Below are positions 6,518 through 37,982 of a stretch of DNA of 38,226 bases, in pieces. The notes under the pieces were generated by a model. The model had not been told where the DNA came from. It saw only the letters and a program-made list of their open reading frames with translations, and did no database searches. The DNA comes from Jimgerdemannia flammicorona (taxonomy: Eukaryota). The DNA is taken from the NCBI GenBank assembly GCA_003990765.1, contig RBNJ01000165.1, forward strand, positions 1 to 38,226, given 5' to 3'. Made by a program: the position numbers and the translations under genes. Within the stretch, counting starts at the first letter, position 1. Each line of letters opens with the position of its first letter.

Positions 6518-6549
6518 AGGATGGGCTCTGGTATATATCATTATTCTTT

Positions 6550-10245: not shown

Positions 10246-10278
<33 letters not shown>
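10213..10278 (+). terminator. Polyadenylation signal and genomic poly(A) tail of LINE-B
   Basis: AATAAA at 10213-10218; A-tract 10239-10278 with one G. Confidence 0.85.
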
Positions 10279-10281
<3 letters not shown>

Positions 10282-10290
10282 GTTCTTTTA

Positions 10291-11484
10291 TTACTGGCCA
10301 TGATATTTCTTAAGTCAGTTTCGATGAATGGTGGTGGGGATTATTGTGCCTGAGGGTTTTCATAGCCAAAAGGTAGTTCCTTTTATATCTTGCACAAGGT
10401 AAGGTCCTTCCCACTTAGGCTCCAGTTTTCATGACCATGAAGCTTTAACCATATTCTGATACACTAGGACTTTGTCTCCTATCTTGATAATCTCTAAGAG
10501 TTTGTGGGTCTTTTCCACATTCTTCCATTGTAGTGTCTGCACCTTCGTTATGTAATCCTCAGCCTTCTTCCTGATTTAGTATAGTCTCTGTATTTCCATG
10601 TCCACATGTTTCCATATGGCATCTCCATTGGATGACAAGGTTCCCTGAAAACATTCTTCTCCGAATAGCATTTCTCAAGGGGTAAAGTGGGTACTTTGTG
10701 ATCGGATATCCCGAAGAGCAGATAATGCTATTGGTAGATAGTAATCCCAGTTCTTGTAGTTATCGCAGATCTTGGCAATAATGTTCTTGAGGGTTTTGTT
10801 GGTCCTTTCTACTTGTCCATTTCCTTGAGAGTGATATGCTGTGGTCCGAATATACTGGATCTTGTACTTCTTGTAGAGAACTTCGAAGAACTGGTTCACA
10901 AATTTGGTTCCTCTATCTGTAGTTACTTATGTTGGGGTCTTGAACTGGCAGATGATTTCCTTGTGGAAGAAATCAGCGATTGACTGTGCATTGGCTTCCA
11001 TAAGGGGTCCCACTTCTATCCATTTTGTAAAGAGGTCTATGATGATGATGATGTATCAGTTACCAGTCAAGGTCAAGGGTAGGGGGCTGATTATATCCAT
11101 TGCAATGTGGGTGAATGGTACTGGTTCTATGTGTGCTGATCCTGGGGCTTGATTTCGTTGGTCTTGATTCTGTTTCTGGCATTTGTCGCAGGTCTTGATG
11201 AATTGTCTGATATCTTCCTCCATCCCTGGCCACCATATTGTTCTTCTTGCCTTATCGTATGTGTTTGTTCCTCCTAGATGGCCAAGTTTGTATACTGATT
11301 TCATTGCTTGCTCCTTTTTGTATTCTGGTATAACTAGTAGTTTTCCTTTCTTCAGTGTTTCTCTATCAGTTTCGAATTTTTTCCATGTTCTGTTGATAAT
11401 CATTTGTGTCTATTCTTCCAGATGTTGGGGCATCTTTCGCTGTCCCAGGTATTTGATAATTCCATAGTAGAGCTCCTTATTCAT
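10291..11484 (-). pseudogene. D1 ORF2: stand-alone integrase (~397 codons, with stops)
   Basis: Own ATG at 11484 overlapping the ORF1 stop; GHLG..CDKC, IAMD, TDRG, QVERTN, KWEGPY; single frame to TAA 10293-10291. Confidence 0.85.
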
Positions 11485-14400
11485 AGTGATTTTGTGGGGG
11501 TGGGGTCCTTTGGGGTATCCGTGAGAGGAAATCTGCATTGGCATTGGTTCTTCCAGAGCAATGTACAATGGTTACATCATAAGCTTGTAACTTCATTATC
11601 CATCTGGCATAGATTCCTTTGGGTTGTCCAGTTGTCAGTAGCCAGGTAAGAGCTGAGTGGTCCATTTGGATGGTAAAGTGTCTTTCAGCCAGGTAGTAGT
11701 GGAACTTTTCTATGGCCCAGATGACTGCGAGGCATTCCAACTTGTAGGATTTGTATTCTTTTTCAGCTCCTCGGGTTCTGCGGCTGAGGTATGCAATGAT
11801 ATACTCCACTTTATCTTTCTTTTGAGCTAGGACTGCTCCTAGTCCTTGTGCGCTTGCATCAGTCTGTAGGATGAATTCTTGAGTCCAGTCAGGTCTTCTG
11901 AGGATGGGTGCCTGGGTCAGTCTGACCTTGAGTTTGTCAAATGCTTTTTGTTGTCTGCCAGTCCACTGGAACTTGGTATCCTTCTTGTTAAGTTCATAGA
12001 TTGGTCCTGTAATATTAGAGAATCCTCTAATAAATCTGTGATAATAGGAGGTGAGTCCCATGAAGGCTTGGGCTTCCGTAACAGTGGTGGGTCTTGGGTA
12101 TGCTACCACTGCTTGTATCTTGAGGGGGTCTGTGTGTGTTCCATCTTGGTTGATGATATGGCCGAGATAGGAGATCTTGATTTCTGCGAACTTGCACTTC
12201 TTGGGTTTGATGTAAAGGCCATGTTGTCTTAGTCTCTCCATTATCTGCTGTATGTGCTGCAGATGTTCCTCAGGTGTCTTGCTATAGATGATTACATCAT
12301 CGACATAGACCATCATCCATCTTTCCATATTATAGCGGAAGATTTTGTTCATCATTTGCTGGAAGCTTGCTAGTGTATTGCACATTCCAAATGGCATTCA
12401 TAGGTAGATGTGGGTTCTGTCTGGAGTAATGAAAGCTGACTTTTCACTTGCCATGTTTGTAAGTCCGATTTGGTGGAATCCTGAGTATAAGTCCAATGTG
12501 CTGTAGTACTGTACTTCATCTCCTAGTGTTATGAGGATATCATTGATGAGGGGCAGTGGTTGGCGATCCTTCTTGGTAACCATGTTGAGCTTTCTGTAGT
12601 CAACACAGAGTCTTGAGGCGAATTCTCCAGGCTTGCTACCTTTTTTCGGAGCTAGTACAACAGGTGAGGACCAGGGGCTGCTTGCTTCTTTAATGATGCC
12701 GGCTTCTTCCATCTGCTTGATTTCTTCTCTGAGCCATTCTTGGTAGGCTGGTGGGACAGGTCTTGCCTTCTGATAAATTGGTTCAGTGTCTCCAGTATCT
12801 ACCTCATGATAGTAGTGTGGAGTCTTTCCCTTGATATCCTTGAAATCTGTGGCAAGGATATCCTCAAATTCATGGAGTATTTTCTTGAGTACTTTCTTGA
12901 GTGGAAATTCATTTCCAATGGTGTAGCTGTGCTTGCTCATGTTTTCCTCCTTCTTGTGCTCAAGTTCAGTGATCTTGATATTGGCAAATACTCCTCTTCC
13001 TGTGGATCCAAATCCTTTCTTTCCTCTTCTTGTTTCCTCCAGCTTCTTAACTTCTATGATCTTTGGTTGTAGGATCGGGAAGATCAACATTTGCACCAAT
13101 CGGTCCTTCTTCTTGACTGAAAATGGGATTGTAGGATTGTGATTCCTAGCGATGAGTAGAATTTCTCTGGTATAGTCTGAATCGATGACTCCTCCTTCAA
13201 TTGTAATATCACTTCTAGCCAGGCTGCTTCTTGTCTTGAGAATCCCAACATGATCCTTTGGGATGGTCATCTCCAATCCAGTTGCAAGTAGGGTGGTTGT
13301 CTGGGGTTCCAGTACAGTCTCTTCTACTGTAGCAATGTCCATTCTAGCTGCATTTTCTGACTTGTATTCAAGCAAGACTGCATCAGGGTGGATCTTTCGA
13401 ATCTTGACCTTGATTTCTTCTTCATCATCACTGTCCTCCAGGAGAGCTGGTGGTTCGTCATCTTCCTCCTTCTCTTCTTCTCTGATCTGTTTTTCGAGAG
13501 CTTTCTGCCTTCTTTCCTGGTGGATCTTCCTGATTCTGATGGTGCACTGGTAGCAATCATTGACGTGCTCCATGCAGTACATCCTGATTCCATGAGGACA
13601 GACTCCTTGTGGGGCATAGCCTTCTGCAATCTTCTTGTACCATTCTTCTTCACTCATCCATCCGACTTTCTTCTTCTTTGGAGTAGTCACCATATAAGCT
13701 TCCTCTTGCTTGCTCTCTTCTTCCTCCATGTTGGGCAGGACTCCTTTGTTGACATTGATGGGAATTTGTATCTTCTGTCTCCAGTAGGTGATCTGCATCT
13801 TCTGGGCATTGAGATCAATTACTGCCTTGGCTTTGTGAAGTCATTGATTGCCAATGAGGATGTCATAGTTGGTGGCATTGGTTATGATTACATCTACTGG
13901 GATGGTTGCTCCTCCAATCTTGATGGGAACATCTCAGATCTTTCCCAGAGGTGTGGCTCTTGTACCATCAGCTGTGATAAACACTAGCTTAGTTGCTTCT
14001 TCTACATTCCAACCTAAGTGGTCTGCTGCCTTCTTGCTGAGGAGATATCCTCCTGCTCTCATATCAATGATGGCTTCAAAGATTCTATCTTCGATTTGGC
14101 ATATTGCATAAGCAGAGGTTTTGCGATTGTCCTCACTTTCTTCTCCTGAGTCCTCTTGAGCATTATTGGCCTCGGTTATCTTCCATCCTTGTTTCTTAGT
14201 TGTTTCTGCAAGTCCAAACCCCATTTGCTGTCTGAATGTTGGGATTTCTGCAAGCTGACCAAAGGTTGCATTGACTTTTTGTTGGCTGAGGTCCTTGAAG
14301 ATATCATACTTAAAGGTCTTGGTCTTGCAGAGCTTCTTTTCTTTTTCTCCTTCACTGGCTGGAGTGGTTCCTCAGATGATATCTTGAACTGCTTGCTCCA

Positions 14401-15469
14401 GCTCTGTATCTTGGTCCATCTCTTTGGCTTGGCTTTCTGTAGCAGTTTTCATCTGCTTTTCCACTGGGTTCTTCTTGGGTCTTCCTAGTGGTCTCTTGTA
14501 GGGCTCTTTGCGAGCATCCTTCTTGGTGATCTGAGCAGGATAGGTCTCTCATTCTTCTTCATCAGAATCTCCAATCTCCTCAAAGGTAATTGTATTGGCC
14601 TGCTCCTTGTTTCATGTGGCATTGCTTGGTTGAGCCTTGCGCTTGGTTTCGCTCATGCATTCATAGGAGTAGTGGCCTTCTTCTCCACAAGTATAGCAGG
14701 TATCTTTCTTCTTGTCTGAGGTAGTGGCGAACTTCTGAACAGGGCGGCAGTCTCTTCCTTGAATTTCCTTTACCACATCTCCCAGGTGGGCAGTCATTTC
14801 AGCAAACCTTTTGGCGAGTTCCTCTATAGGGTCACTGTTCTTCTGCTGCTCTGTAGCTTTTGGCTGAGGTGTGTTTCAATTGATCATTGTGGTAGGGATC
14901 ACACTGGTTGCCTTCGGTGCCTTGATTCTGACTCCTGTGATCCTTTCCATTGTATAGTCTTGTGGATGTCTGGCTATCCAGTATCGCTGAGCATAGGTGA
15001 CCTTCTGTGGCAGATCCAGAATCACTGGTGATGAGCGGATGGCCATGGCTATTTCTGGGTAGACTCCTTTTATGAAGGTTGCTTCGGCTACTTGATCCCG
15101 GATGGCAGCAGCATAATCTGCAAGGATTATCTGATATTAAATTCTGGTATAGAATGTGTTTGGATGCTCACTCATTCCTTGGCATATTGTATTGAGCTGA
15201 TCCTTCAGGGCTTGCTTGATCTCATCTGTATAATATGTATTTCGGAGCCAGGTCTTCTGTGCTGTCAGTACAGCATTGGCATTATTTCCTGCATGGGTTG
15301 CGACTGTAAATGCTGCTCTGGCAGGGCCTTGTAGGCTGAAGGGCATGAGGGCTACTTGCTGTGCTGCTGTCAGGGTCCTTACAGTGGCATACTGCTCGAA
15401 ATCATCAATGAAGGTGATGATTGATTCATCTGAGGTATATCCATGGATTACTGGTGGTCTCATATCTAT
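11477..15469 (-). pseudogene. D1 ORF1 polyprotein gag-PR-dUTPase-RT-RNase H
   Basis: One frame throughout: CCHC knuckle CYTCGEEGHYSYEC, protease AIIDMRA (D2 retains DTG), dUTPase ~13414-12998 (TRSSLA, GVIDSDY, RGKKGFGSTG), RT YVDD, RH LQTDAS..NADFLSR; stop 11479-11477. Confidence 0.92.
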
Positions 15470-15562
15470 CTTGTCTGGATATTGGGACTTGGTTTGTATG
15501 GTTGTTCGGGTGGTGGTGGTTGTTCGTTGTTCAGCTTGAAAGTGAGGGATTCATCTTGAATC

Positions 15563-15580
15563 ACCAGCCAATAGGCACCA
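15563..15580 (-). promoter_or_regulatory. Putative primer binding site of D1
   Basis: TGGTGCCTATTGGCTGGT 3 nt after the LTR end; matches D3 site; cognate tRNA not identified. Confidence 0.7.
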
Positions 15581-15583
15581 AGT

Positions 15584-16070
15584 TATAACGTAGCAGATGC
15601 TTACTCTTGAAAGTATGTTGGATTTCTGTATCTTGAAAACTTGACTATTCTGACTCTTGCTGAGTCTCTTGAAGTTACAGGGGAGGGTGGGTGAGTTTGA
15701 AGTGTATCTGCCCACAGGCTTACTAGTTCCTTTGCTATCTCTTTGCTTTGAACTATTTCGATCTGAGATTTATTCACTCAAAGATACTGGGTTATTTATA
15801 CAAGTTTTGCTAGCTATGAGATGGTTACTGGGTTATATGGCTAAGTTATGAGTCATTTAACACTTTGCGAAATGTTTCAGCAGTTATGAAATGCTATACT
15901 ATATCAGGAAGCTCGATCTTGCACTTTGCGAAATATTTAGCAAGTTGCGAAATATTTAGCAAGTTGCGAAATTGAGGACTATTAACTATGTGGCTATACT
16001 ACTTTGGGACTGGGTGTGATCAAGTGTCGATTCCCTATTTCCTTCTTCCAAATCTGGTTATACCGTCACA
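15584..16070 (-). repeat. D1 5' LTR (487 bp, U3 type alpha)
   Basis: TGTGACG...CGTTATA termini; aligns along its length with 31254-31720; 19-bp tandem unit TTGCGAAATATTTAGCAAG at ~15926-15971. Confidence 0.9.
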
Positions 16071-16130
16071 GTATGCAGATTGCATATTATAGGAGAAACT
16101 TTTTTAAATATATATTTTATTTATAAATAT

Positions 16131-16617
16131 TATAATGGTTGATCCAAATTAGTAATATAAATCAGGAGAATAGACATTTGATTGCAGTACCTGAATCCAA
16201 TTCTCAAATATAGTATATTCTTATAAAAAGCAGTTATATTTAATATATGGAAACTTTAACAGATGTTAAAGTATTTACAGATATTAAAGTATTCACAGAT
16301 ATTAAAGTATTTACAGATATTAAAATATTCAAAGATATTAAAGTATTCACAGATATTAAAGAATGACTCATTGAAAATATAGTCATAACTTAGCTACCTT
16401 ATAGCCAGCAAACTTGTATAAATATCCTCAGTATCTAGAGTAAATAAACCTCAGATTGAAATAGTTCAAAGCAAAGAAAAAGTAAGAGAATTAGTAAGTC
16501 TGTAGGTAGATATACTTCAAACTCACTCACTTCTGCATCCTGAAGACTCTGTAGAGTCAAGTTTTCAAGATACAGAAATCTGACATACTTATATAGTTAT
16601 GTATCTACTACATTATA
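16131..16617 (+). repeat. D2 5' LTR (487 bp, U3 type beta)
   Basis: TATAATGG...CATTATA, the mutated form of TGTGACGG...CGTTACA; U3 resembles 37493-37740; followed by decayed PBS TAGTATCTATTGG. Confidence 0.82.
16259..16361 (+). repeat. 18-bp tandem repeat (~5.7 copies) in D2 U3
   Basis: Unit ACAGATATTAAAGTATTY starting at 16259, 16277, 16295, 16313, 16331, 16349. Confidence 0.9.
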
Positions 16618-18674
16618 ACTTAGTATCTATTGGCTTGTAATTTAAGATGAATCTCTCACTTTTAAGCTGAATAATAAACAATTACTACCATCTGAACAAC
16701 TATACAAATCAAACCAAGACATCTAGACAAGATAGATATAAGACTACTAGTATTCTATAATTATACTTCAGATGAATCAATCATCATCTTTATTGATGAT
16801 TTTGAGCAATATGCTACTATAAGGACTCTGACAGTAAGACAGCAAGTAGCCCTCATATCTTTCAGTCTCTGAGGATCAGCAAGTGTAGTATTTATAGCTA
16901 TAACCTATATGGGAAATAATGATGATGTCATGCTAGTAATACAGAAGATCTGGCTCTAAACCACCTATTAATAGATGATATCAAACAAGCTCTAAAGGAT
17001 TAGCTCAATACAATATGCCAAGAAATGAGTAAGAATCTATACATATTCTATATCAGAATCTGATATTAGATAATCCTTGCTGATTATACTAATGCTATCT
17101 AAGATCAAGTAGCTGAAGCAACCTTTATAAAAGGAGTTCACCTAGAGATAGCTATAGCTATCTGTTCATTATAAGTAGTTCTGGACCTACTACAAAAGGT
17201 CACCTATGTCTAGTGATACTAGATAGCTAGATATCTATAAGACTATATAATAGAGAGAGTCACTGAAGTTATAATTGAAGTACCTAAGGCAATCAGCATA
17301 ATCTCCACCATAGTGATTAATCAAAATACACCTCAGCTAAGAGCTAGAGAGCAATAGAGAAACAGTAACTCTATAGAGGAATTTCCTAAGAAGTTTGCCA
17401 AAATAACTGCTCATTTTGAAGATATGATAAAGGAAATTAGAGGAAGAGACTGCCACCTAGTTCAGAAGTTTGCCACTATCTTAGACAAGAAGAGAAATAT
17501 CTACTATATATGTAGAGAAGAAGGCTGCTACTTTTATAAATATATAAGCAAAACTAAGGATAAGGCTCAGCCAAGCAATGCTACTTGAAATAAGGAACAG
17601 GTCAACACCATCACCTTCAAGGAGATTGGAGAAGCCGATAAAGAAGAATGGAAAGCCTACTATACTAAGACTGTTAGGAAGAATGTCTATAAGTAATTTT
17701 ACAAAAGACCACCAGAGAGACTCAAGAAAAACCCTGTGGAAAAACAAATAGAGACTGCTATAGAAAGCCAAGTTAAAGAAATAAATCAAGATATGGAACT
17801 GAAATAGGCTGTTTAAGATATCATTTGAGGACCTACTCTAGTCAGTAAAGGAGAAAAGGAGAAAAAGCCTTGCAAATTTAAGACCTTTAAGTATGATATC
17901 TTCAAAGATCTCAGCCAATAAAAGGTCAATACAACTTTTGGCCAGCTGGTAGAAATCTCTATATTTAGATAGCAAATGAGATATGGACTTGCTAAGACAA
18001 CTAAGGAATGAGGTTGAAAGATAACTGAGACCAATAATGTTCAAGAAGACTCTGGAGAAGAAAGTGAATTCAATCACAAGACCTCTGCCTATATAACCTA
18101 TCAGATTGAAGATAGAATCTTTGAAGCCATTATTGATACTGGGGCAGAAGAATGTCTTCTCAATAAGAAAGCAGCAGACTGTCTAGATTGAGAGGTTGAA
18201 GAAGTAACTAAGTTGATATTCATCACAGCAGATAGTATAAGAGCTAAATCTCTAGAAAAGATCTGGGATATTTCCATCAAGTTTAGAAGAGCAACCATCC
18301 CAAGAGATGTGATCATAACTAATACTACCAACTATAATATCCTCATTGGCAACTAGTGGCTTCATAAAGCCAGGACAATAATTGACCTAAAAGCCCAAAA
18401 GATACAGATCATTTACTGAGATCAGAAGATGTAAATTCTCATTAATATCAACAAAGAAGTACTATCTGAGATAGAGGAGAAAGAAAGCAAGTAAGAAGAA
18501 GTCTATATAATGACTACTCAGAAAAATTAAAGAGAACTGGTGTAAGAAGATTGCAGAAGAATATACACTACAAGAAGTCTGTCTCTATAGAATTAAGATA
18601 TACTGTATAGAGTATATTAATGATTGCTACCAGTGTATCAGCAGTATCAAGAAGATCTATATAAAAAAAGACAG

Positions 18675-19890
18675 TTGTCAGTAACTCCCTCTGCCTCCTA
18701 CAACCTTGGGACCTCTCCCACAGCCCCTTGTCAATATAAACATATCTCTCATCAACAAACTCTAAGTGTGTTAACTCCACATATACCTTTTAAGCCTTTG
18801 CCCTACACTCCACCACATCACTCAACTCCTCCAGTGCCTCCAACAGGTCCTCTTCCTCCTTCTCACTTCTCTTTACCCTAGTCACCTTACATACAAAGAC
18901 TCTCCACATTATTACCAGAGACCAATCACATGCCTTGTCAGTAGCCTCTCTCTCTGCCAGTCAAATCCAGACATCAACATTCCCTGTCCAGAAGGTTATT
19001 CCTTTTCAGACCCTAAACCCTATATCAACTAACTCAGCCATGACCTCCTCAACTCTCCTCCTCATCTCCACAGTAGTTACCATAAGCACTTTCTTCACCA
19101 GGAGCTACACCACTCTGAGATTCCATCTCAAGTACTACTATTAGGATACACACCTCTTCAACTATCAACCCAGCCTTCAGCACCTCCTCTAGCAGCCCTG
19201 CCCCTCAAAGTCCACCTCTACTTCTTCTAGGTTATTCAGGAACTTAACAGATGCTGCACCTTCCACCTACTTCACAATCAGCCCCAGGACTATTTTTGCC
19301 ATCACTACTAAGCCCCTGAAGCACAGAGTGACTGTGAATTCTGAGATTGACTTCTTGAGTAATAGTGCCACCACTAGTTCCATTACACTATTAGCCAGAT
19401 CACTAGGCCTCATGCTTTTCCCACTACTTAGTCCACCCATCTAGATTTTTTTCCTGATTACCTATCATGCTCTCATCAGCAGTCACTTCCTCAGCTGATA
19501 CACCACCAGTCCCACTACTCTGGCCCCCCAGAAGGACACTCTCTTGAGGCTGTTACTTTGCAGGCTTTGGTATCTCCTTGCTTCTTTTCAGCCAACTCTC
19601 TAGTCCAGCTTCTTGCTGACCTCCCTTCATCTTATCTACAAAGCTTGCTCTCTCAGTCTCTTGCCAGCCAGCACTACCTCCTCCCCTACTATGTCCACCT
19701 GTCAGCAGGCCCCTCATGCTTCCCCCCAAGCTGGGGCCTCTTCTTACATACTGCCAGTTGAATGCTGCCCAGTATATACCTCAGAATACTCATCAGTCAC
19801 TGTAATACTAGTAGTTTTTCTCCAAGAACTATATTGTAAGTATTGCCAAAAGGTTGTATAACCTGAATATTATCAGAGAAAGTATCCTGG
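18675..19890 (-). mobile_element. L1/Tx1-like LINE copy C: 5' UTR and first part of ORF1 only, degenerate
   Basis: Nucleotide similarity to LINE-A ~1010-2260 (e.g. gtgactgtgaattctgagattgacttcttgagtaat); YVYIDKGLWERSQGCRRQRELLT matches A/B ORF1; boundaries approximate. Confidence 0.85.
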
Positions 19891-22800
19891 TTATTGGATA
19901 TTATCATCTATAGTAAGACACTAGAAGAATATCTGCTGTATATCTAGCAGATAATAGAGAAGCTAAGGAAGTATGATCTTTATATTAAGCCTAAGAAGTA
20001 TAAGTTTACAGAAATCAAAATATCCTATCTTGATGATATCATCAACTAAGATGAAACACACACACAGACCCCCTCAAGATTCAAGCAGTAGCAGTATACC
20101 CAAGGCCCACCACTATCATGAAAGCCCAAGCCTTTATAGAACTTGCCTCATACTACTGCAGATTTATCAAAGAATTCTTTAACATTATAGACTCAATCTA
20201 CAAACTCAATAAAAAGGATGTCAAGTTTCAATAGATTAGCAGGTAATAAAAAGTATTTGATGAACTCAAGATCAGACTAATCAAAGCACCCATCCTCAGA
20301 AGACCAAATTGAACTCAGGAATTTATCCTGTAGACAGATATAAGTATGTAAGAACTAGGAGCAGTTCTGGTCTAAAAGAAAGACAATGTAGAATATGTCA
20401 TTATATATCTCAGCTGAGGAACTTAAGAAGCTGAAAAGGAGTATAAATTCTATAAGTTGGAATATCTTACAGTTATCTAGGCTATAGAGAAGTTCTACTA
20501 CTATCTTATCAGAAGATACTTTACTATCCAAACAGACCACTCAGCTCTTACTTAGCTACTAACTATAGGATAATCTAAAGAAATCTATGTCAGGTGGATT
20601 ATAAAGTTGTAAGCTTATAATGTAACCATTATACACTATCTCAGAAGAACTAATACCAATACTGATACCCTCTTATAGATAGTCCAAAGAACCCCCAACC
20701 AGTAAATCAACTATGAATAAAGAACTCTACTATAGAATTATTATCTATCTGAGATAGCAAAAGATGCCCCAACATCTGAAAAATAGACAAAAATAATTAT
20801 TAATAGAATATAGAAACAATTCAAAACTGATGAAGAAACATTACAAAAAAGAAAGCTACTAGTTATATCTAAATATAAGAAGGAGCAAGTAATGAAATCA
20901 GTATATGAACTTGACTATCTAGGAGGAACAAATATATATGATAAAGCAAGAAGAATAATGTAGTGGCCAGGAATAGAGAAAGATATCAGACAATTTGTCA
21001 AGACTTATAACAAATGCCAGAAATAGAAATAAGATGAATAAGATCAAAGCCCAGAATCAGTACATATAGAACTAGTACTCTTTGCATGTATTACAATGGA
21101 CATGATTTACTCTCTACTCTTGACTTTTGACTAGTATCTGATATATCATTGTCATTATAGATCTTTTTACAAAATAAATAGAGGCAGGACCCCTCAAAGA
21201 AGCTAATATACAGTCAATTGCTAATTTCTTCTACAAAGAAATCATCTGCCAATTCAAGACCCCATTGCAAGTAACTACAGACAGAGAAACAGAATTCATG
21301 AATCAGTTCTTTGAGGTTCTCTACAGGAAGTATAAGATCCAGTATATTTGGACTACAGTCTATCACCCTCAGGAAAATGGACAAGCAGAAAGGACCAACA
21401 AGACTCTCAAGAATATCATCATCAAGATCTGCAATAATTATGAAAACTGAGAGCACTATCTGCTAATAGCATTATCTGCTCTCTGAGATATCCAATCACA
21501 AAGCACCCATTTCACTCCTTGAGAGATGTTTTTTGGAGAAGAAAGTTCTCAAGGAACCTTATCATCTAATAGAGATACTATATGGAAACATATAGACACA
21601 GAGATATAGAGACTATACCAAATCAGAAAGAAGGCCAAGGATTACATAACCAAGGTATAGGCACTATAACAGAACAATATAGAAAAGATTCACAAGCCAT
21701 TGTTGGCAAGGGTGTTGAGCACTGGGCACGGGAAGCAGCTATCACTGGGCCAAAGGGAAATGGGCAGCAGTGGTAGCGAAGACTATTACTTTGATTTTTT
21801 TTTTTTTTTTGTCTGAATATCTTTGATGATATTCTATCTCCATATTTTTCGAGGTAATTGTGACGCAGTCGGAATTTATATTAATACAGCGTCTTGTCCA
21901 GATAAATACTAATCCAGTCATGCACACTACAAAAACGAGTGCTTGTGCCTGTGCTTGTCGAAGGGCACAATAGACATGTGTAATTACCGCTGGGAGGGGA
22001 CCACAGATGGTTCTACTGCGGAAAGGCGAGCAAATAATTTTGAGAGATGCGATAGATTTTTACCTGGTTGCGACTTGGTTTTTCGGAGACTTGGTCGTTT
22101 TGTAACCTTGCTGATTGCAGTCATGATTTTTGATGGTATCATCGGAACTTTGTCAACGGCTTCGGAATTGTAAAGTAGTTCACAAAATTTTGTTGTCAGT
22201 ACACGCAATTAAAGACTAAATTACAAATAAGGCTGTGCTCGTTTATAGTGATTTATATTAACTGCAAGAAACGATTTGCACTTCTATGCCGCATCACGTG
22301 CGAAATGGTATCATGTGCCGTGCGAGTTGATTAAAAAATCCCTTTTCCACTTCACACAGCTATCTCATTTCTTTACAATGACCCAACTTACACCGCCATC
22401 TGCATTCTCATATTGCCCTACGACACCGTACAGGACATCGTGATCACTGGAAAAATCCAAAACTGGCTATCATTTACAGGAGTTAAATTCTGCTAGTGTA
22501 TATGGCGGACTGGTCGAGTAAAACAGTGCTGTTGTCCACGAATGGAAGGTCGCAAAACTGGTGAGAAGAACTATTGAACATAAAATTTGAAAACTTTTCA
22601 AGCTCTCTAAATATGTTATCGATGGCATTTCTCATCAAATTCCCAGACGATGTAGTGACCAGTATTAGCTCCAGTCATCTCATCCATATTTGCAATTCTG
22701 TAGTTATTCGGTGTCGGAATTTCTGAGCGCCGCACAAAAACAATAGGGCCACGTTAGCGCGTTGATTGAGAATGACAAGAATCGGGGATTAGTGTTATTG

Positions 22801-29492: not shown

Positions 29493-29822
29493 GTAGTCCT
29501 TTATAAGGATCAATCTCGAGGGCGAAAGTTAATGTGTCAAAATCGGCGGGTGGCTTGGGCTACGTCACTAAATTTTTGAATGGAACCTGGCTTTGATTGC
29601 ACGCCTACCTTTCTGCTAGAGCGTCTTCTACCTTGACTGAAGATTAAATAAATTTGTCAGTATATTTCATTTAGGAAAATTAACAACTTATTAATATTTA
29701 TAATTTGCTATTTTTATAAATGAAAATTTAATATGCAAAATATATATCTCAGGAGTCTAATTATTTTTTAATATCTATTCAAAATTAATATTTTTAAATA
29801 ACTTAATTATTATTAGTATAAT

Positions 29823-30422: not shown

Positions 30423-31253
30423 TTATAAAAAAAAAAAAAAAAAAAAAAAATAGTTATGGATTCTTCTATATATTTATATAATATAGACAATTTTGACAGT
30501 TATTTATTAGAAAGATTTTAGAGTATAGGCAATTTCTATATAATATAAATGGTTTGGTTGGTTTCTCAAATAGCAGATGATGGTAATTTTCAGAATTGAA
30601 ATTATCCAAGTTAGATAGATAATAGTAATTTTTTCAGATAAGAGTAACTTTTACTGATTGTATAGATTTAGTACAATTCTTAAATAGTATAAATTTAGTA
30701 GATTTTTTAAATGATATAAATTCAGCAAACTTCTTAAATAATTTGGATTTCTATATAATATAGTAGATTTGGCAAATTTTTCTAAATAGTATAAATTATT
30801 AAATATAGATTTTAAAAATTTTTGAATTGTATGGATTCTGTATAATATAGTAGATTGGTAGATTTTTTAAATAGTAGATGATAGTATAATGAAATAGATT
30901 TGGTAGATTATTCTCTAATAGTATAGATTCTATATTTAACAAATTTCTCTAAATATTATACCTAAGTTTTTCACTTAAACTTTAGGTGAATAATTTAGAC
31001 TTTATCTAGTAAGTAGTTTTTTAAGTTCTTCTGACTTTATCTAAACTAGACCAAATTGTCAGATTTTTTCTTTATATCAGAAAGTAAACTAGAGTAGAAA
31101 AAAATAAAGCTCATAACTTCTAGCAGTAGCTCTTAGCAGATATTTCTCTTAAGTATTGTAATCCTCTATAAATTAAGTAGCTCTTAGTAGATATTCTTCT
31201 CCTAAGTATATCAGATAATAGACTTTTACTTTTTGATTAAGATTATAATATAC

Positions 31254-31720
31254 TGTGATGGTATAGCCAGATTTGAAAGAAAGAAATAAGGAACAGACAC
31301 TTGATTGCACCCAGTCCCAAAGTAGTATAGCCACATAGTTAACAGTCCTCGATTTCACAACTTGCTGAATATTTTGCAAAGTGCAAGATCAAGCTTCCTG
31401 ATATAGTATAGCATTTCGCAACTTGCTAAATATTTTGCAAAGTGTTAAATGACTCATAACTTAGCCATATAACCCAGTAACCATCTCACAGCTAGCAAAC
31501 TCATATAAATAACCCAGTATCTTCGAGTGATAAACCTCAGATCGAAATAGTTCAAAGCAAAGAGATAGCAAAAGAAACTAGTAAGCCTGCAGGCAGATAC
31601 ACTTCGAACTCACCCACCCTCCCCTGTAATTTCAAGAGACTCTGTGAGAGTCAGAATAGTCAAGTTTTCAAGATATAGAAATCCAACGTACTTTCAAGAG
31701 TAAGTGTCTGCTACATTACA
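31254..31720 (+). repeat. D3 5' LTR (467 bp, U3 alpha)
   Basis: TGTGATG...CATTACA; TATAAATA at ~31504; matches D1 LTR minus about one 19-bp unit. Confidence 0.92.
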
Positions 31721-31723
31721 ACT

Positions 31724-31741
31724 TGGTGCCCATTGGCTGGT
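31724..31741 (+). promoter_or_regulatory. Putative primer binding site of D3
   Basis: TGGTGCCCATTGGCTGGT 3 nt after the LTR. Confidence 0.7.
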
Positions 31742-31822
31742 GATTCAAGACAAATCCCTCACTTTCAAGCTAAACAATGAACAACTGCCACTATCCAAAC
31801 TAAGCCCCAATACCCAGACAAG

Positions 31823-34800
31823 ATGGACATGAGACCACCAGTATTCCATGGATATACCTCAGACAAATCAATCATTACCTTCATTGATGATTTCGAGCAG
31901 TATGCTGCTGTAAGGACCCTGACAGCAGTACAGCAAGTAGCCCTCATGCCCTTCAGCCTACGAGGCCCTGCCAGAGCAGCATTCACAGCCACAACCCATG
32001 CAGGAAATGATGCCAATACTATACTGACAGCATAGAAGACCTGGCTCTGAAATATATATTACACAGACAAGATCAAGCAAGCCCTGAAGGATCAGCTCAA
32101 TACAATATGCCAAGGAATGAGCAAGGATCCAAACACATTCTATACCAGAATTCAATATCAGATAATCCTTGCAGACTATACTGCTGCTATCCAAGATTAA
32201 GTAGCCAAAGCAACCTTCATGAAAGAAGTCCATCCAGAAATAGCCATGGCCATCTGCTCATCACCAGTGATTCTGGATCTGCCACAGAAGGTCACCTATG
32301 CTCAGCGATACTGGATAGCCAGACATCTACAAGACCATATAATGGAAAGGGTCACAGGAGTTAGAATCAAGGCACCCAAGGCAACTAGTGTGATCCCTAC
32401 CACAATGATCAATCGAAACACACCTCAGCCAAAAGCTACAGAGCAGCAAAAGAACAGTGACCCTATGGAGGAACTCACCAAGAGGTTTGCTGAAATGACT
32501 GCCCACCTAGGAGACATGGTAAAGGAAATTCAAGGAAGAGACTGCCACCCTGTTCAGAAGTTTACTGCCACCTCAGACAAGAAGAAAGGTACCTGCTATA
32601 CTTGTGGAGAAGAAGGCCACTACTCCTATAAATGCATGAGCAAAACCAAGTGCAAGGCTCAACTAAGTAATGCCACACAAAACAAGGAGCAGGTCAATAC
32701 AATTACCTTTGAGGAGATTGGAGATTCTGATGAAGAAGAATTGGAGGCCTATTCTGCTCAGACCACCAAGAAGGATGCTTACAAAGAACCCTACAAGAGA
32801 CCACCAGGAAGACCCAAGAAGAACCCAGTAGAAAAGCAGATGGAAACGGCTACCGAAAGCCAAATGGAAGAGATGGACCAAGATATAGAACTGGAACAAG
32901 CAGATCAAGATATTATCCGAGGAACCACTCCAGCCAGTGAAGGAGAAAAAGAAAAGAAGCTTCGCAAGACCAAGACCTTCAAGTATGATATCTTCAAGGA
33001 CCTCAGTCAACAAAAGGTCAATGCAACTTTTGGTCAGCTCACAGAAATCCCAACATTCAGACAGCAAATGAGGTTTGGACTTGCAGAAACAATGAAGGAA
33101 CAAGGATGGAAGATAACTGAGGCCAATAACGTTCAAGAGGACTCAGGAGAAGAAAGTGAGGACAATTGCAAAACCTCTGCTTATGCAATATGCCAAATCG
33201 AAGATAGAATCTTTGAAGCCATCATTGATATGGGAGCAGGAGGATGTCTCCTCAGCAAGAAGGCAGCAGACCACCTAGGTTGGGACGTGGAAGAAGCAAC
33301 TAAGCTGGTGTTCATCACAGTCGATAGCACAAGAGCTACACCTCTGGGAAAGATCTGAGATATTCCCATCAAGATTGGAGGAGCAACCATCTCAGTAGAT
33401 GTAATCGTAACCAATGCCACCAACTATGACATTTTCATTGGCAATCAATGGCTTCACAAAGCCAAGGCAGTAATTGATCTCAATGCCCAGAAGATGCAGA
33501 TCACCTACTGGGGACAGAAGATACGAATTCTCATCAATGTTAACAAAGGAGTCCTGCCCGATATGGAGGAAGAAAAGAGCGAGCAAGAGGAAGCTTATAT
33601 GGTGACTACTCCAAAGAAGAAGAAAGTTGGATAGATGAGTAAAGAAGAATGGTGCAAGAAGATGGCAGAAAGCTATGCACCACAAGGAGTCTGCCCTTAT
33701 GGGATCAGGATGTACTATATGGAGCATTTCAATGATTGCTACTAGTACACCATTGGAATCAGGAAGATCCACCAGGCAAGAAGGCAGAAAGCTCTCGAAA
33801 TACAGATCAGGAAAGAAGAGAAGGAGGAAGATGATGAACCACTAGCCCTCCTGGAGGACAGTGACGATGAAGAAGAAATCAAGGTCAAGATTCGAAAGAT
33901 TCACCCTGATGCAGTCTTGCCAGAATACAAGTCAGAAAATGCAGCCAGAATGGACATCACTACAGTAGAAGAGACTGTACTGGAACCCCAGACAACCACC
34001 CTACTCACAACTGGACTGGAGATGACCATCCCAAAGGAACATGTCAGGATTCTCAAGACAAGAAGTAGCCTGGCTAGAAGTGAAATTACAATTGAAGGAG
34101 GAGTCATCAATTTAGACTACACCAGAGAAATTCTACTCATTGCTAGGAATTACAATCCTACAATCCCATTTCCAGTCAAGAAGAAGGACCGATTGGTACA
34201 AATGTTGATCTTTCCGATCCTACAACCAAAGATCATAGAAGTTAAGAAGCTGGAGGAAACAAGAAGAGAAAAGAAAGGATTTGGATCCATAGGAAGAGGA
34301 GTATTTGCCAACACCAAGATCACTGAACTTGAGCATAAGAAGGAGGAAAACACAAGCAAGCACAGCTACACCATCGGAAATGAATTTCTACTCAAGAAAG
34401 AACTCAAGAAAATACTCAACGAATTCGAAGATGTCCTTGCCACAGATTTCAAGGATATCAAAGGAAAGACCCCACACTACTATCACGAAGTAGATACTGG
34501 AGACACTGAACCAATTTATCAGAAGGCAAGACCTGTCCCGCCAGCCTAATGAGAATGGCTCAGAGAAGAAATCAAGCAGATAGAAGAAGCTGGCATCATT
34601 AAAGAAGCCAGCAGCCCCTGGTCCTCACCTGTTGTACTAGCCCCAAAAAAAGGCAGCAAGCCTGGAGAATTCACCCAAGACTCTGTGTCAACTACAGAAA
34701 ACTCAACATAGTTACCAAGAAGGATCACCAATCACTGCCCCTCATCAATGACATCCTCATAACACTGGGAGATGAAGCACAATACTACAGCACCTTGGAC

Positions 34801-35814
34801 TTATACTCAGGATTCCGCCAAATCAGACTCACAGACATGGCAAGTGAAAAGTCAGCTTTCATCACTCTAGATGGAACCTATGTCTACCTACAAATGCCAT
34901 TTGGAATGTGCAATGCACCAGCAAGTTTTCAGTGAATGATGAACAAAATCTTCTGCTATGACATGGGAAGATGGATGATGGTTTACATTGATGACGTAAT
35001 CATCTACAGCAAGATACCTGAGGAACATTTGCAGCACATACAGTAGATAATGGAGAGACTAAGACAAAATGGCCTTTACATCAAACCCAAGAAGTGCAAA
35101 TTCGCAGAAATCGAGATCTCCTATCTCAGCCACATCATCAACTAAGATGGAACATACATGGACCCCCTTAAGATACAAGCAGTGGCAGCATACCCAAGAC
35201 CCACCACTGTTATTGAAGCCAAAGCCTTTATGGGACTCGCCTCCTATTATCACAGATTTATTAGAGGATTTTCTAATATTGCGGGACCAATCTATGAACT
35301 TAACAAGAAGGATACCAAGTTTCAGTAGACTGGAAAACAACAAAAAGCATTTGATGAACTCAAGGTCAGACTGACCCAGGCACCCATCCTCAGAAGACCA
35401 GACTGGACTCAAGAATTCATCCTATAGACTGATGCAAGCACACAAGGACTAGGAGTAGTCCTAGCTTAAAAGAAAGATAAAGTGGAGTATGTCATCACAT
35501 ACCTCAGCCATGGAACCCGAGGAGCTGAAAAAGAATATGAATCCTATAAGTTGGAATGCCTTGCAGTCATCTGGGCTGTAGAAAAGTTCCACTACTACTT
35601 GGCTGGAAGACACTTCACTATCCAAATGGACCACTCAGCTCTCACCTGGCTACTGACAACTAGACAACCCAAAGGAATCTATGCCAGATGGATAATAAAG
35701 TTGCAAGCTTATGACGTAACCATCGTATATCACTCTGGAAGAACCAATGCCAATGCAGATGCCCTCTCATAGACATTCCAAAGGACCCCACCCCCACAAA
35801 ATCGCCATAAATAA
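31823..35814 (+). pseudogene. D3 ORF1 gag-PR-dUTPase-RT-RNase H
   Basis: MDMRPPVFHG start; CCHC knuckle; AIIDMGAG; dUTPase ~33878-34296; YIDD at ~34984; 1-bp deletion near 34675 relative to D1; homologous stop TAA 35812-35814. Confidence 0.92.
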
Positions 35815-37009
35815 GGAGCTCTACTACAGAATTATCACATACCTGGGACAGCAAAAGATGCCCCAACATCTGGAAGAATGGATACAAACGATTATCAACA
35901 GAACATGGAAACAATTCGAAACTGATGGAGAAACACTGAAGAAAGGAAAACTACTAGTCATACCAGAACACAAGAAGGAGCAAGCAATGAAATCAGTACA
36001 TGAACTTGGCCACCTAGGAGGAACAAATACATATGACAAGGCAAGAAGAACAATATGGTGGTCAGGGATGGAGGAAGATATCAGACAATTCATCAAGACC
36101 CGTGACAAATACCAAAAACAGAAATAAGACCAAAGAAATCAAGCCCCAGGATCAGCACACATAGAACCAGTACCATTCGCCCATGTAGCAATGGATGTAA
36201 TCGGCTCTCTACCCTTGACTTTGACTGGCAACCGATACATCATCATCATTGTAGACCTTTTTACAAAATGGATAGAAGCAGGACCCCTTATGGAAGCCAA
36301 TGCACAGTCAATCGCTGATTTCTTCTACAAGGAAATTATCTGTCAGTTCAAGACCCCAACACAAGTAACCACAGATAGAGGAACAGAATTTGTGAACCAG
36401 TTCTTTGAAGTTCTCTACAAGAAGTACAAGATCTAGCATATTCAGACTACATCATATCACCCTCAAGAAAACAGACAAGTAGAAAGGACCAACAAAACCC
36501 TCAAGAATGTTATTACCAAGATCTGCGATAACTATGAAAACTGGGATCACTATCTGCCAATAGCATTATCTGCTCTTTGAGATATCCGATCACAAAGTAC
36601 CCACTTCACCCCTCGAGAAATGCTGTTTGAAGAAGAATGTTCTCAGGGAACCCTATCATCTAATGGAGATGCTGTATGGAAACATGTAGACATGGAAATA
36701 CAGAGACTACACCAAATCAGGAAGAAGGCTGAGGATTACATAACAAAGGTGCAGATACTATAACGGAGGAATGCGGAAAAGACCCACAAACCCTTAGAGA
36801 TTATCAAGATAGGAGACAAAGTTCTGGTGTATCGGAATATGATTGAAGCTTCATGGTCACGAAAACTGGAGCCCAAGTGGGAAGGACCTTACCTTGTGCA
36901 AGATATAAAAGGAACCACCTTTTGGCTACGAAAACCCTCAGGCACAATCATCCCCACTACCATCTACCGAAACAGACTCAAGAAATACCATGACCAGCCA
37001 ATAAAGTAA
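35807..37009 (+). pseudogene. D3 ORF2 integrase
   Basis: Start is ATA at 35807 where D1/D2 have ATG; HELGHLG, VAMD, TTDRGTEF, VERTN, KWEGPY; no chromodomain seen. Confidence 0.85.
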
Positions 37010-37492: not shown

Positions 37493-37976
37493 TGTGACGG
37501 TTGATCTGAATTAGTAACATGAAACAGGGAAATTAAACATTTGATCATAGTACCTGAACCCAATTCCCAATATAGTATAGCCTTACAAAATAGCAGTCAT
37601 ATTTCACAAGTGTAGAAACTTTAGCAACCAAAGAAATTCTATAGATGTAAAATATTTCATGATTGTAAAGATCTTAACAAATGTAGAGAATTTACACTTG
37701 TAGAAATTGACTCACAGAAAACGTAGTCATAATTTAGCCACCTTATAGCTAGCAAAACTGTATAAATAACCCAGTATCTTCAAGTGAATAAACCTCAGAT
37801 CGAAATAGTTCAAAGCAAAGAGATAGCAAAGGAACTAGTAAGCCTGCAGGCAGATACACTTTGAACTCACCACCCTCTCCTGCAACTTCAAGAGACTCTG
37901 CGAGAGTCAGAACAGTCAAGTTTTCAAGATACAGAAATCCAACGTACTTTCAAGAGTAAGTGTCTGCTACGTTACA
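37493..37976 (+). repeat. D3 3' LTR (484 bp, U3 beta)
   Basis: TGTGACG...CGTTACA; distal ~230 bp near-identical to the 5' LTR, proximal ~250 bp resembles the D2 LTR instead. Confidence 0.92.
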
Positions 37977-37982
37977 ATATAT

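What the first reader, a model, noticed from the sequence alone, without database searches (positions are those of the whole stretch)
10291..11484. Gypsy family D encodes integrase as a separate ORF whose ATG overlaps the gag-pol stop, conserved in all three copies
Seen: after RNase H the gag-pol frame stops and IN starts in another frame at the same junction in each copy: D1 cacTATGAATAAgga (ATG 11484, TAA 11479-11477), D2 aacTATGAATAAaga (20713-20720), D3 cgcCATAAATAAgga (35807-35814, ATG>ATA). Three diverged copies sharing it argues against decay. Established: Ty3/gypsy integrase is normally cleaved from the Pol polyprotein, which also ensures its packaging. Inference: IN is made by termination-reinitiation, frameshifting or a subgenomic RNA, decoupled from RT. 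I cannot confirm whether this has been described before.
Basis: partly seen in the sequence, partly recalled or inferred. Interest (0 to 1): 0.85.

Follow-up and report, generated by a model that had tools for sequence, protein, structure and literature searches.

The report
Retrotransposon integrase on its own restart ORF
A family of gypsy-type jumping genes, and a whole clade of relatives from soil metagenomes, encodes its integrase as a separate gene whose start codon sits on the stop codon of the preceding polyprotein, which suggests that ribosomes restart there rather than the integrase being cut out of one long protein.

Summary
In D1, D2 and D3 the Gag-PR-dUTPase-RT-RNase H frame ends at TAA. 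Integrase (IN) follows in the +1 frame from an ATG 5 nt upstream of that stop (ATA in D3), with no indel between copies.

All three copies are dead, so they cannot exclude a founder indel. Relatives do.
- 22 of 22 dUTPase-bearing Pol homologues listed lack IN domains.
- 58 of 61 inspected IN homologues carry a Met at the D1 start position.
- The best fused RT-RH-IN protein is 32% identical, against 38-77% for most stand-alone INs.
- In metagenome DNA, 18 of 25 informative loci have the pol stop within 8 nt of the IN ATG. There are nine spellings (ATGA, TAATG, ATGAATAG and others) and both frame relations.
- The split clade is monophyletic and D nests inside it.

Best reading: a bicistronic Ty3/gypsy lineage that makes free IN by termination-reinitiation (confidence 0.6). 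This is inferred, because no RNA or ribosome data could be obtained. No calicivirus-type UGGGA motif is present in 0 of 16 elements. Nine full-text searches found no description of this arrangement. I rate it a new variant of a known kind.

The parts
10287..16074 (-). D1, a degenerate Ty3/gypsy copy (5' LTR side and internal region; no 3' LTR recognised)
   Evidence: Self-BLAST: 91% identity to D3 over 5791 nt. LTR-like segment 15583-15827 matches 31478-31721 and 37735-37977.
11477..15463 (-). D1 upstream ORF Gag-PR-dUTPase-RT-RNase H, 1328 codons plus TAA; 8 in-frame stops from point mutations, no frame change
   Evidence: Pfam hits by residue: zf-CCHC 255-270, protease 452-563, dUTPase 697-822, RVT_1 949-1104, RT_RNaseH 1167-1295. 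Stop count.
12998..13375 (-). dUTPase domain between protease and RT
   Evidence: PF00692, E 8.5e-24, residues 697-822 of the upstream ORF.
11579..11965 (-). RNase H domain, ending in NANADFLSRIP followed by an 11-residue tail QRTPPPQNHYE
   Evidence: PF17917/PF17919; translation.
11477..11479 (-). Stop codon TAA of the upstream ORF in D1
11482..11484 (-). ATG of the integrase ORF in D1, in the +1 frame, 5 nt upstream of the first base of the stop (ATGAATAA)
   Evidence: The homologous Met is present in 58 of 61 inspected IN homologues and in 35 of 38 loci.
11485..11571 (-). Overlap zone: the IN frame is open here, with no ATG, while the pol tail is being read; C/A-rich and G-poor in its last 40 nt
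   Evidence: MFE no lower than shuffles (z +1.2).
10291..11484 (-). D1 integrase ORF (397 codons plus TAA; 8 in-frame stops): N-terminal extension, H2C2 zinc finger, DDE core, C-terminal GPY/F-like part, no chromodomain
   Evidence: Pfam Integrase_H2C2 (E 4e-17) and rve (E 2.1e-10). Stop count.
20713..20720 (+). D2 junction ATGAATAA (ATG 20713-20715, TAA 20718-20720)
16398..21700 (+). D2, the same family, heavily mutated (RIP-like C>T/G>A excess, further indels in IN, unrelated stretch about 18700-19900)
35807..35814 (+). D3 junction ATAAATAA (start codon mutated G>A; TAA 35812-35814)
31250..37009 (+). D3 internal region; IN frame 35807-37009 with 4 in-frame stops; LTR-like segments at 31478-31721 and 37735-37977 are 91% identical

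Best explanation
Family D belongs to a monophyletic clade of Ty3/gypsy LTR retrotransposons that is bicistronic. One long ORF encodes Gag, protease, dUTPase, RT and RNase H. Integrase is a second cistron whose AUG overlaps or abuts the stop codon of the first. This much is shown.

I infer that IN is translated from the full-length RNA by coupled termination-reinitiation. A ribosome that has finished the roughly 1300-1700-codon first ORF terminates within a few nucleotides of the IN AUG. A fraction of the 40S subunits stay on the RNA and start again there. The product is free IN in sub-stoichiometric amount, not covalently linked to Gag-Pol. IN would then have to reach the particle or the cDNA by non-covalent contacts (inferred, untested).

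The three window copies are dead relics of this design.
For: Shown:
1. The same junction is present in D1, D2 and D3 without indels.
2. 22 of 22 dUTPase-bearing Pol homologues among the 120 listed (44-53% identical in RT-RH) carry no rve or Integrase_H2C2 domain. All 16 whose ends I printed stop 8-40 residues after the RNase H motif. P0014 ends ...KYNHE, against D1 ...QNHYE.
3. Of 61 IN homologues inspected, 55 start exactly at the Met homologous to D1 Met-1. Three more have that Met behind a short upstream extension. Three are N-terminally truncated.
4. The best fused RT-RH-IN protein among 57 hits of 745-2125 aa is 32% identical at 160 bits. Full-length stand-alone INs reach 38-47% (P0121 70%, the partial P0122 77%), most at 300-685 bits. 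In an exhaustive phmmer search, the hits whose alignment begins within the first nine query residues also begin within their own first nine residues. All are 576 aa or shorter and none is a Pol-sized fusion.
5. In metagenome DNA, 35 of 38 loci that show the IN N-terminus have an ATG there. Two of the other three are fused outgroups and one is decayed.
6. Among the 25 loci with an upstream ORF of at least 70 codons, 18 have the stop within -8 to +8 nt of the ATG. L013 is counted after reading past a premature TGA. There are nine spellings: ATGA, ATGAATAG, ATGGATCTAG, ATGAACACTGA, TAATG, TGATG, TGAtcATG, TGAcggaATG and TAAtaaaaATG. Both frame relations occur, and pol tails of 11-27 residues differ in sequence.
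7. The closest locus with DNA, L005 (the contig of P0014), has ATGAATAG in the same +1 relation as D1.
8. IQ-TREE of IN: the split clade has support 100/99 against five fused forms. The tight-junction clade of 11 rows has 100/100. D1/D3 plus P0121 are sister to L005, and the frame relation changes several times inside the clade.
9. L003 has an upstream ORF of at least 1577 codons and an IN ORF of 418 codons, both free of stops, so the design exists in intact elements.

Inferred: keeping stop-start adjacency while spelling, frame and tail length all change is what selection for translational coupling predicts. From established knowledge, passages of the review PMC5972666 state that termination-reinitiation after long ORFs needs the restart codon close to the stop. 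They also state that it occurs at UAAUG-type overlaps, with about 10% efficiency in influenza B.
Against: - There is no RNA, ribosome-profiling or protein evidence.
- No calicivirus/influenza-type TURBS motif 1 (UGGGA) lies in the 100 nt upstream of the restart codon in 0 of 16 elements.
- No shared upstream structure was found. MFE z-scores of 12 junction leaders range from -1.3 to +1.7, and D1, D3, L005 and L016 are less structured than shuffles. The cis element that reinitiation after such a long ORF should need is therefore unidentified.
- Tight ORF packing could in principle persist for reasons other than coupling.
- A sister group in the same split clade has a 65-80 nt spacer (6 of the 25 loci, 7 as scored before L013 is corrected) and one locus has 31 nt. 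Strict adjacency is thus not universal, and those elements may use another route.
- The hosts of the metagenome contigs are unknown.
- The window copies themselves are non-functional.
Confidence: 0.6

Rival explanations
1. IN is a separate cistron but is translated independently of pol termination. The route would be a subgenomic or spliced mRNA (as retroviral env, or spumavirus pol, recalled) or an internal ribosome entry element just upstream of the AUG.
For: - The conserved AUG and the separate ORF fit this as well as reinitiation.
- A sister group in the split clade has a 65-76 nt non-coding spacer. It holds a conserved hairpin 4-8 nt before the IN ATG, with 36 of 36 cells paired, 3 covarying pairs and 0 of 500 shuffles reaching the covariation score. 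It ends in an invariant ACAGC. It could be an entry site, a promoter or a splice acceptor.
- The 40 nt before the AUG in D1, D3, L005, L008 and L016 are C/A-rich and G-poor and, in D1, D3, L005 and L016, fold no better than shuffles. That would suit factor-poor initiation.
- No TURBS motif was found.
Against: - Independent initiation gives no reason for the pol stop to stay within 8 nt of the AUG through nine different spellings, two frame relations and tails of 11-27 residues.
- L005 has no AG dinucleotide in the 40 nt before its ATG (sequence printed), so it has no nearby splice acceptor.
- No RNA data are available either way.
Confidence: 0.25
2. IN is made as a Pol-IN fusion by programmed ribosomal frameshifting. 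In family D this would be +1 at GAA-UAA-G, with other shifts in relatives. The ATG would then be incidental.
For: - In D1 the IN frame is open for 29 codons upstream of the ATG, so a shift window exists.
- Shifts of +1 at a slowly decoded stop codon are known elsewhere (antizyme, prfB; recalled). Ty3 itself uses a +1 shift between gag and pol (passage in PMC5911963).
Against: - The Met is kept in 35 of 38 loci and 58 of 61 proteins, which a fusion does not need.
- The frame relation is +1 in some relatives and -1 in others within one clade.
- In several relatives the IN frame is closed 1-6 codons upstream of the ATG (L033 1, L024 2, L071 3, L012 6). That leaves a shift window of a few codons, and no X XXY YYZ heptamer is seen in the printed junctions.
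- GAA to AAU allows no P-site re-pairing.
Confidence: 0.08
3. The break is a 1-nt indel inherited from one defective founder of family D, and the ATG is chance.
For: - All three copies are dead and belong to one family.
- The junction lies beside a C-run (CCCCACCCCCAC) where slippage indels are easy.
Against: - The same arrangement occurs in relatives at 38-77% IN identity, including elements with both ORFs intact.
- No fused form closer than 32-34% identity was found in two searches of billions of proteins.
Confidence: 0.02

Closest known systems
Canonical Ty3/gypsy (Metaviridae) elements such as Ty3, with Pol as one PR-RT-RH-IN polyprotein
   Same: Domain set and order (Gag zinc knuckle, PR, RT, RNase H, then H2C2-DDE integrase), LTRs, and an IN N-terminal extension motif (DPELxxIIxYL-like) that is also seen in fused relatives.
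   Different: IN is not part of the polyprotein. The 50-100-residue RH-IN linker of fused forms is replaced by a stop-start junction. Gag to RH is one uninterrupted ORF, with no gag/pol frameshift. Ty3 uses a +1 shift (PMC5911963 passage).
Termination-reinitiation (stop-restart) in caliciviruses and influenza B segment 7, dependent on TURBS
   Same: A long upstream ORF whose stop overlaps or abuts the downstream AUG (UAAUG/AUGA-type), with restart sites up to a few nt upstream or downstream of the stop (review PMC5972666, passages; junctions).
   Different: No UGGGA motif 1 in the 100 nt upstream, in 0 of 16 elements, and no shared upstream fold. The upstream ORF is far longer. The system is a retrotransposon and not an RNA virus.
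Victorivirus (Totiviridae) CP/RdRp and hypovirus ORF A/B stop-restart in fungi
   Same: AUGA or UAAUG overlaps, in viruses whose hosts are fungi; the clade here is probably fungal too.
   Different: dsRNA or ssRNA viruses unrelated to retroelements. The dependence on an upstream pseudoknot is recalled, not read. For these viruses I saw only search listings and one review passage on the hypovirus. No comparable structure was found here.
Non-LTR retrotransposons SART1 (UAAUG coupling) and LINE-1 (unconventional termination-reinitiation of ORF2)
   Same: Retroelements that translate a second cistron from the full-length RNA after terminating the first (review passage).
   Different: There the second cistron is the whole RT/endonuclease protein. 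Here only integrase is split off, and RT stays fused to Gag. The review names no LTR retrotransposon example.
Caulimoviridae polycistronic pregenomic RNA (TAV-assisted reinitiation)
   Same: Reverse-transcribing relatives of Ty3/gypsy with closely packed or overlapping ORFs translated by reinitiation (review passage on TAV; ORF spacing recalled).
   Different: They need a virus-encoded transactivator, and no such ORF is evident in family D. Caulimoviruses have no integrase.
Spumaretrovirus Pol from its own spliced mRNA; Ogre elements with an intron inside pol
   Same: Precedents for uncoupling part of Pol from Gag-Pol (recalled, not read here).
   Different: The break there is gag/pol or PR/RT, not RH/IN, and the route is splicing. 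There is no stop-start overlap.

Membership tests
Ty3/gypsy (Metaviridae) LTR retrotransposon | Pol domain order PR - RT - RNase H - integrase | tested here: met
   Pfam on D1: protease, RVT_1 and RT_RNaseH in the upstream frame; Integrase_H2C2 and rve downstream.
Ty3/gypsy (Metaviridae) LTR retrotransposon | Gag with CCHC zinc knuckle, and flanking long terminal repeats | tested here: met
   zf-CCHC at residues 255-270. D3 has LTR-like segments 31478-31721 and 37735-37977 at 91% identity. No 3' LTR was recognised for D1 or D2.
Ty3/gypsy (Metaviridae) LTR retrotransposon | Integrase released by proteolysis from a Pol polyprotein | tested here: not met
   IN is in another frame behind a stop, in all three copies and throughout the clade.
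Coupled termination-reinitiation (stop-restart) | Stop of the upstream ORF overlapping or within a few nt of the downstream AUG, conserved in relatives | tested here: met
   D1 and D2 ATGAATAA. 18 of 25 informative relatives lie within -8 to +8 nt, in nine spellings.
Coupled termination-reinitiation (stop-restart) | Downstream translation depends on translation and nearby termination of the upstream ORF, on the same RNA | not testable with these tools
   It needs reporters, ribosome profiling or RNA mapping.
TURBS-type termination-reinitiation (caliciviruses, influenza B) | Motif 1 UGGGA 40-90 nt upstream of the stop, complementary to 18S rRNA helix 26 | tested here: not met
   0 of 16 elements have TGGGA in the 100 nt upstream. 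The motif definition comes from PMC5972666 passages. Other complementarity to the host 18S rRNA was not testable, because the host rRNA is unknown.
Programmed -1 or +1 ribosomal frameshift site | A slippery or shift-prone site inside an overlap window, giving a fusion protein; no start codon needed | tested here: inconclusive
   No X XXY YYZ heptamer is seen at the printed junctions. The window is only 1-6 codons in L033, L024, L071 and L012. The Met is conserved, and the frame relation varies. For D1 itself a 29-codon window exists, so a shift is not formally excluded.
Chromovirus branch of Ty3/gypsy | Chromodomain at the IN C-terminus | tested here: not met
   No chromodomain hit in the D1 or D3 IN frames. 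The ORF ends about 35 residues after its WEGPY motif (GPY/F-type).

The most novel reading that the evidence does not exclude
A large, probably fungal clade of LTR retrotransposons has given up the Pol-IN polyprotein. It expresses integrase as a second cistron by a termination-reinitiation mechanism that uses none of the known TURBS signals. A sister branch has replaced the overlap with a structured intercistronic RNA, a covarying hairpin next to the AUG. Together these would be the first LTR-retroelement examples of translational restart. They would point to a new class of eukaryotic restart or entry element and imply that IN is packaged, or acts, without a covalent tie to Gag.
Probability: 0.4. 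Interest if true: 0.85.

Novelty: new variant of a known kind. Interest (0 to 1): 0.72.

Why it matters
In textbook accounts, retroviruses and LTR retrotransposons make integrase as the tail of Gag-Pol. That fixes its amount and guarantees that it enters the particle. A whole clade that splits IN off behind a stop-start overlap breaks both rules and raises three questions.
- How is IN dosed? Here Gag through RNase H is a single ORF, so IN is the only protein whose level can differ.
- How does free IN find the cDNA?
- What lets a ribosome restart after more than 1300 codons without the known tethering motif?

There is also a practical consequence. Annotation pipelines and TE classifiers that expect one pol ORF will score such elements as defective. 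Gene callers will meanwhile report thousands of orphan 'transposase/integrase' proteins. Source names include 'transposase InsO family protein' and 'IS30 family transposase'.

If restart is confirmed, the junctions of under 100 nt would be compact tools for bicistronic expression in fungi.

Tried and rejected
- Whole-genome search of the window's assembly: none is held. Copy-number and young-copy analysis in the host was therefore impossible.
I did not pursue it, and read laying was not called.
- Earlier notes of this scan by place, words and sequence returned nothing.
- Rfam on the window returned no match.
- Shared RNA structure upstream of the restart codon: 12 leaders were folded. No common fold appeared, and z-scores ranged from -1.3 to +1.7.
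- UGGGA motif: absent, 0 of 16.
- Upstream base composition: only some branches (D, L005, L008, L015, L016) are G-poor and C/A-rich. The means over all junctions differ little from background.
- Splice-acceptor idea: AG dinucleotides upstream are inconsistent, and L005 has none within 40 nt.
- My first regular expression for the spacer hairpin missed it. A corrected one found 7 loci.
- Literature: nine full-text searches. Passages were read in PMC3248453, PMC2864245, PMC5911963, PMC2238898, PMC2774666, PMC5972666 and preprint 10.1101/2023.09.13.557621. None describes IN as a separate restart ORF in an LTR retrotransposon. Repbase and GyDB entries and subscription journals were not searchable, so prior description cannot be excluded.
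- Rejected readings: a founder indel, and an intron that fuses RH to IN (there is no room at ATGA or TAATG overlaps).

Full report
**1. What is in the window**

Self-comparison shows three copies of one Ty3/gypsy family.
- D1 lies at 10287-16074 on the minus strand.
- D3 lies at 31250-37005 on the plus strand and is 91.6% identical to D1.
- D2 lies at about 16398-21700 on the plus strand and is about 72-78% identical.

In D1 a single frame runs from a Met at 15463 to TAA at 11479-11477, 1328 codons in all. Pfam finds a CCHC knuckle, an aspartyl protease, a dUTPase (E 8.5e-24), RVT_1 and the RT-associated RNase H in that frame. The zinc-binding and catalytic core domains of integrase lie in the +1 frame.

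That frame has an ATG at 11484-11482, giving cacTATGAATAAgga. D2 has the same eight letters at 20713-20720. D3 has ATAAATAA at 35807-35814. An alignment of the three junctions has no indel from the RNase H end to 40 nt beyond the start.

**2. Why the three copies prove little on their own**

Every copy is dead.
- There are 8 in-frame stops in D1 pol, 8 in D1 IN and 4 in D3 IN.
- The D3 start codon is mutated.
- D3's two LTR-like segments are only 91% alike.
- 442 of the 484 D1/D3 differences are transitions.
- D2 carries 593 C>T/G>A changes among 1176 polarised ones, 288 of them in CpA/TpG context, which is a RIP-like pattern.

The copies are members of one family and could share a founder's indel. 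The junction also sits beside a C-run. The question had to be settled outside the window. No assembly is held for it.

**3. Proteins elsewhere**

*Pol side.* I searched the RT-RH part of D1 pol, with X at stops, against proteins of 730-2324 aa. This gave 3558 hits, of which 120 were listed. The 22 listed hits that carry a dUTPase domain are 44-53% identical. They come from contigs that are mostly 3-12 kb in ENA, JGI and NCBI sources. None has an integrase domain.

The 16 whose C-termini I printed all end 8-40 residues after the RNase H motif [AV]D[AT][LMI]SR. The best one, P0014, ends ...KYNHE, where D1 ends ...QNHYE.

*IN side, similar lengths.* The IN frame of D3, searched against proteins of 233-744 aa, found 113 hits. 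Most are ORFs of 398-453 aa covering 92-94% of the query at 38-47% identity. Two are closer: P0121 at 70% and P0122 at 77%.

Of the 61 N-termini I read, 55 begin M-[NDE]-x-x-[LIF]... exactly where D1 has MNKELYY. Three have that Met behind a short in-frame extension. Three are truncated.

*IN side, longer proteins.* The control search among proteins of 745-2125 aa found 57 hits. The best is a true RT-RH-IN fusion at 32% identity and 160 bits.

*Exhaustive search.* A phmmer search of 1.84 billion cluster representatives agrees. The hits whose alignment begins within the first nine query residues also begin within their own first nine residues; they are 576 aa or shorter, none Pol-sized. Long proteins align only from query residue about 17-68 or later, at 34% identity or less.

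*Linker in fused forms.* Fused relatives have a 50-100-residue linker between RNase H and the IN N-terminal motif, and no Met at that motif.

One NCBI-named member, from Rhizophagus clarus (P0204, 418 aa), starts at the same position. A preprint on Entomophthora notes enrichment of dUTPase and retroviral protease domains alongside Ty3 expansion (passages). These hints point to early-diverging fungi, but the host of the window remains unknown.

**4. DNA of relatives**

An alignment of 46 stand-alone INs was used to fetch 80 metagenome loci. Anchoring each with an HMM of the IN N-terminus gave 38 loci that show that N-terminus, and 35 of them have an ATG there. Of the other three, L069 and L075 are fused forms with a continuous RH-linker-IN frame at 31-33% identity, and L080 is decayed.

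Twenty-five loci have an upstream ORF of at least 70 codons ending nearby. In 18 of them the stop lies within -8 to +8 nt of the A of the ATG. L013 is included after reading past a premature TGA in its ADALSR codons; the frame then runs 29 codons to TAATG.

| Spelling | Loci |
|---|---|
| ATGA | L001, L003/L004, L015, L024, L064 |
| ATGAATAG | L005, L007 |
| ATGGATCTAG | L006/L008 |
| ATGAACACTGA | L016 |
| TAATG | L010, L013, L033 |
| TGATG | L012 |
| TGAtcATG | L011 |
| TGAcggaATG | L039 |
| TAAtaaaaATG | L071 |

- IN is in the +1 frame in L005, L007, L016, L039 and family D. It is in the -1 frame in the others.
- The pol tail after the RNase H motif varies from 11 to 27 residues in the tight-junction relatives and has no common sequence across them. 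It still always delivers the ribosome to the AUG.
- L003 has at least 1577 upstream codons and 418 IN codons without a stop.
- L004 has 140-nt terminal direct repeats 8086 nt apart. This is the look of a recently active LTR element.

**5. Phylogeny**

An IQ-TREE of 23 IN sequences puts all split forms in one clade (support 100/99) against five fused forms. Inside it, an 11-row clade with tight junctions has support 100/100. D1 and D3 pair with P0121, and together they are sister to L005, which shares their ATGAATA(A/G) spelling. The frame relation and the spelling change several times within this clade. The arrangement is therefore old, inherited and maintained, and family D is an ordinary member of it.

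**6. Mechanism**

*Shown:* IN is a separate cistron with a conserved AUG placed on or beside the pol stop.

*Inferred:* translation by termination-reinitiation on the genomic RNA. The argument is comparative. Selection has kept the stop and the start together while everything else at the junction changed, and coupling is what requires that. According to the review passages I read (PMC5972666), reinitiation after long ORFs needs the restart codon close to the stop. It tolerates restart codons slightly upstream or downstream. It gives about 10% restart in influenza B, and it is known in two non-LTR retrotransposons (SART1, LINE-1). No LTR element is named there.

*Frameshifting is disfavoured.* The Met is conserved. 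The frame relation flips. In L033, L024, L071 and L012 the IN frame is closed only 1-6 codons before the ATG, with no slippery heptamer.

*An independent RNA or an IRES remains a real rival.* I could obtain no RNA data. A sister branch of the split clade has a 65-80 nt spacer instead of an overlap. In most of these loci the spacer contains a conserved element ending in a 6-bp hairpin 4-8 nt before the ATG. Three of its pairs covary, 36 of 36 cells are paired, and 0 of 500 shuffles reach the covariation score.

*Against a textbook restart.* No UGGGA motif lies upstream, 0 of 16. No common fold was found. The D, L005 and L016 leaders are, if anything, unstructured and C/A-rich. The cis signal is unknown.

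**7. Consequences (inference)**

Gag through RNase H is one ORF with no frameshift, so RT is made in the same amount as Gag. IN is then the only product whose dose is set separately. Free IN must join the particle or the cDNA without a covalent link to Gag-Pol.

**8. Novelty**

Nine full-text searches and passages from seven papers turned up no description of this arrangement. Repbase and GyDB records and subscription journals were out of reach. I call it a new variant of a known kind. It is a Ty3/gypsy lineage with a bicistronic pol/int layout, probably using a known class of translational mechanism in a setting where it has not been reported.

**9. Verdict**

- Confidence that IN is a conserved separate cistron is about 0.95.
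- Confidence that it is expressed by termination-reinitiation is about 0.6.

Noticed in passing
L028:5740-5792, L036:4457-4506 (= L038), L040:1211-1264, L041:121-173, L044:1110-1159, L058:169-221: In a sister branch of the split-integrase clade, the pol stop and the IN ATG are 65-76 nt apart. The spacer holds a conserved element, GGTGAAAGCGAAAGTGT-xyz-GCAwwGTGAC-z'y'x'-ACAGC. It forms a 6-bp hairpin 4-8 nt before the ATG. Three pairs covary, 36 of 36 cells are paired, and 0 of 500 shuffles reach the covariation score. It may be a restart or entry element, a promoter or a splice acceptor.
   Followed up: partly
window 2400-4400 (+): A second, different gypsy fragment in which a dUTPase-like stretch lies upstream of the protease (order dUTPase-PR-RT-RH). 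It is cut off inside RNase H near 4400 by a G-rich stretch. The dUTPase was read from the translation and was not scored with Pfam.
   Followed up: partly
window 6511-9260 (+): A LINE-like non-LTR retrotransposon: an Exo_endo_phos endonuclease ORF followed by RVT_1 ORF pieces.
   Followed up: no
window 24337-25356 (-) and 29007-29528 (-): Two ORF pieces with protein kinase domains (Pkinase E 1e-25 and 2.2e-08). They may be exons of one host gene between the D2 and D3 insertions.
   Followed up: no
window 16398-21700 (+), D2: D2 carries a strong excess of C>T and G>A changes: 593 of 1176 polarised changes, 288 in CpA/TpG and 32 in CpG context. This resembles repeat-induced point mutation. D1 and D3 differ mostly by transitions in both directions. 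D2 also contains an unrelated, proline/serine-rich stretch at about 18700-19900 in place of the dUTPase-RT region.
   Followed up: partly
window 10250-10285 (-): A run of about 35 T (element orientation) starts a few bases after the D1 integrase stop, where homology to D3 ends. No 3' LTR was recognised for D1.
   Followed up: no
P0031, P0049, P0050, P0054, P0059, P0060: Pol ORFs of the non-dUTPase branch carry a conserved Cys/His-rich extension after RNase H (C..ENHH.H.YC..C.RNLPYGT..H.C ... P.YLIN.PWW.EP), and likewise no integrase. No function is known.
   Followed up: no
source names: Stand-alone integrases of this clade are named 'transposase InsO family protein' or 'IS30 family transposase' by metagenome pipelines. 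These eukaryotic retroelement genes are being filed as bacterial IS transposases.
   Followed up: no
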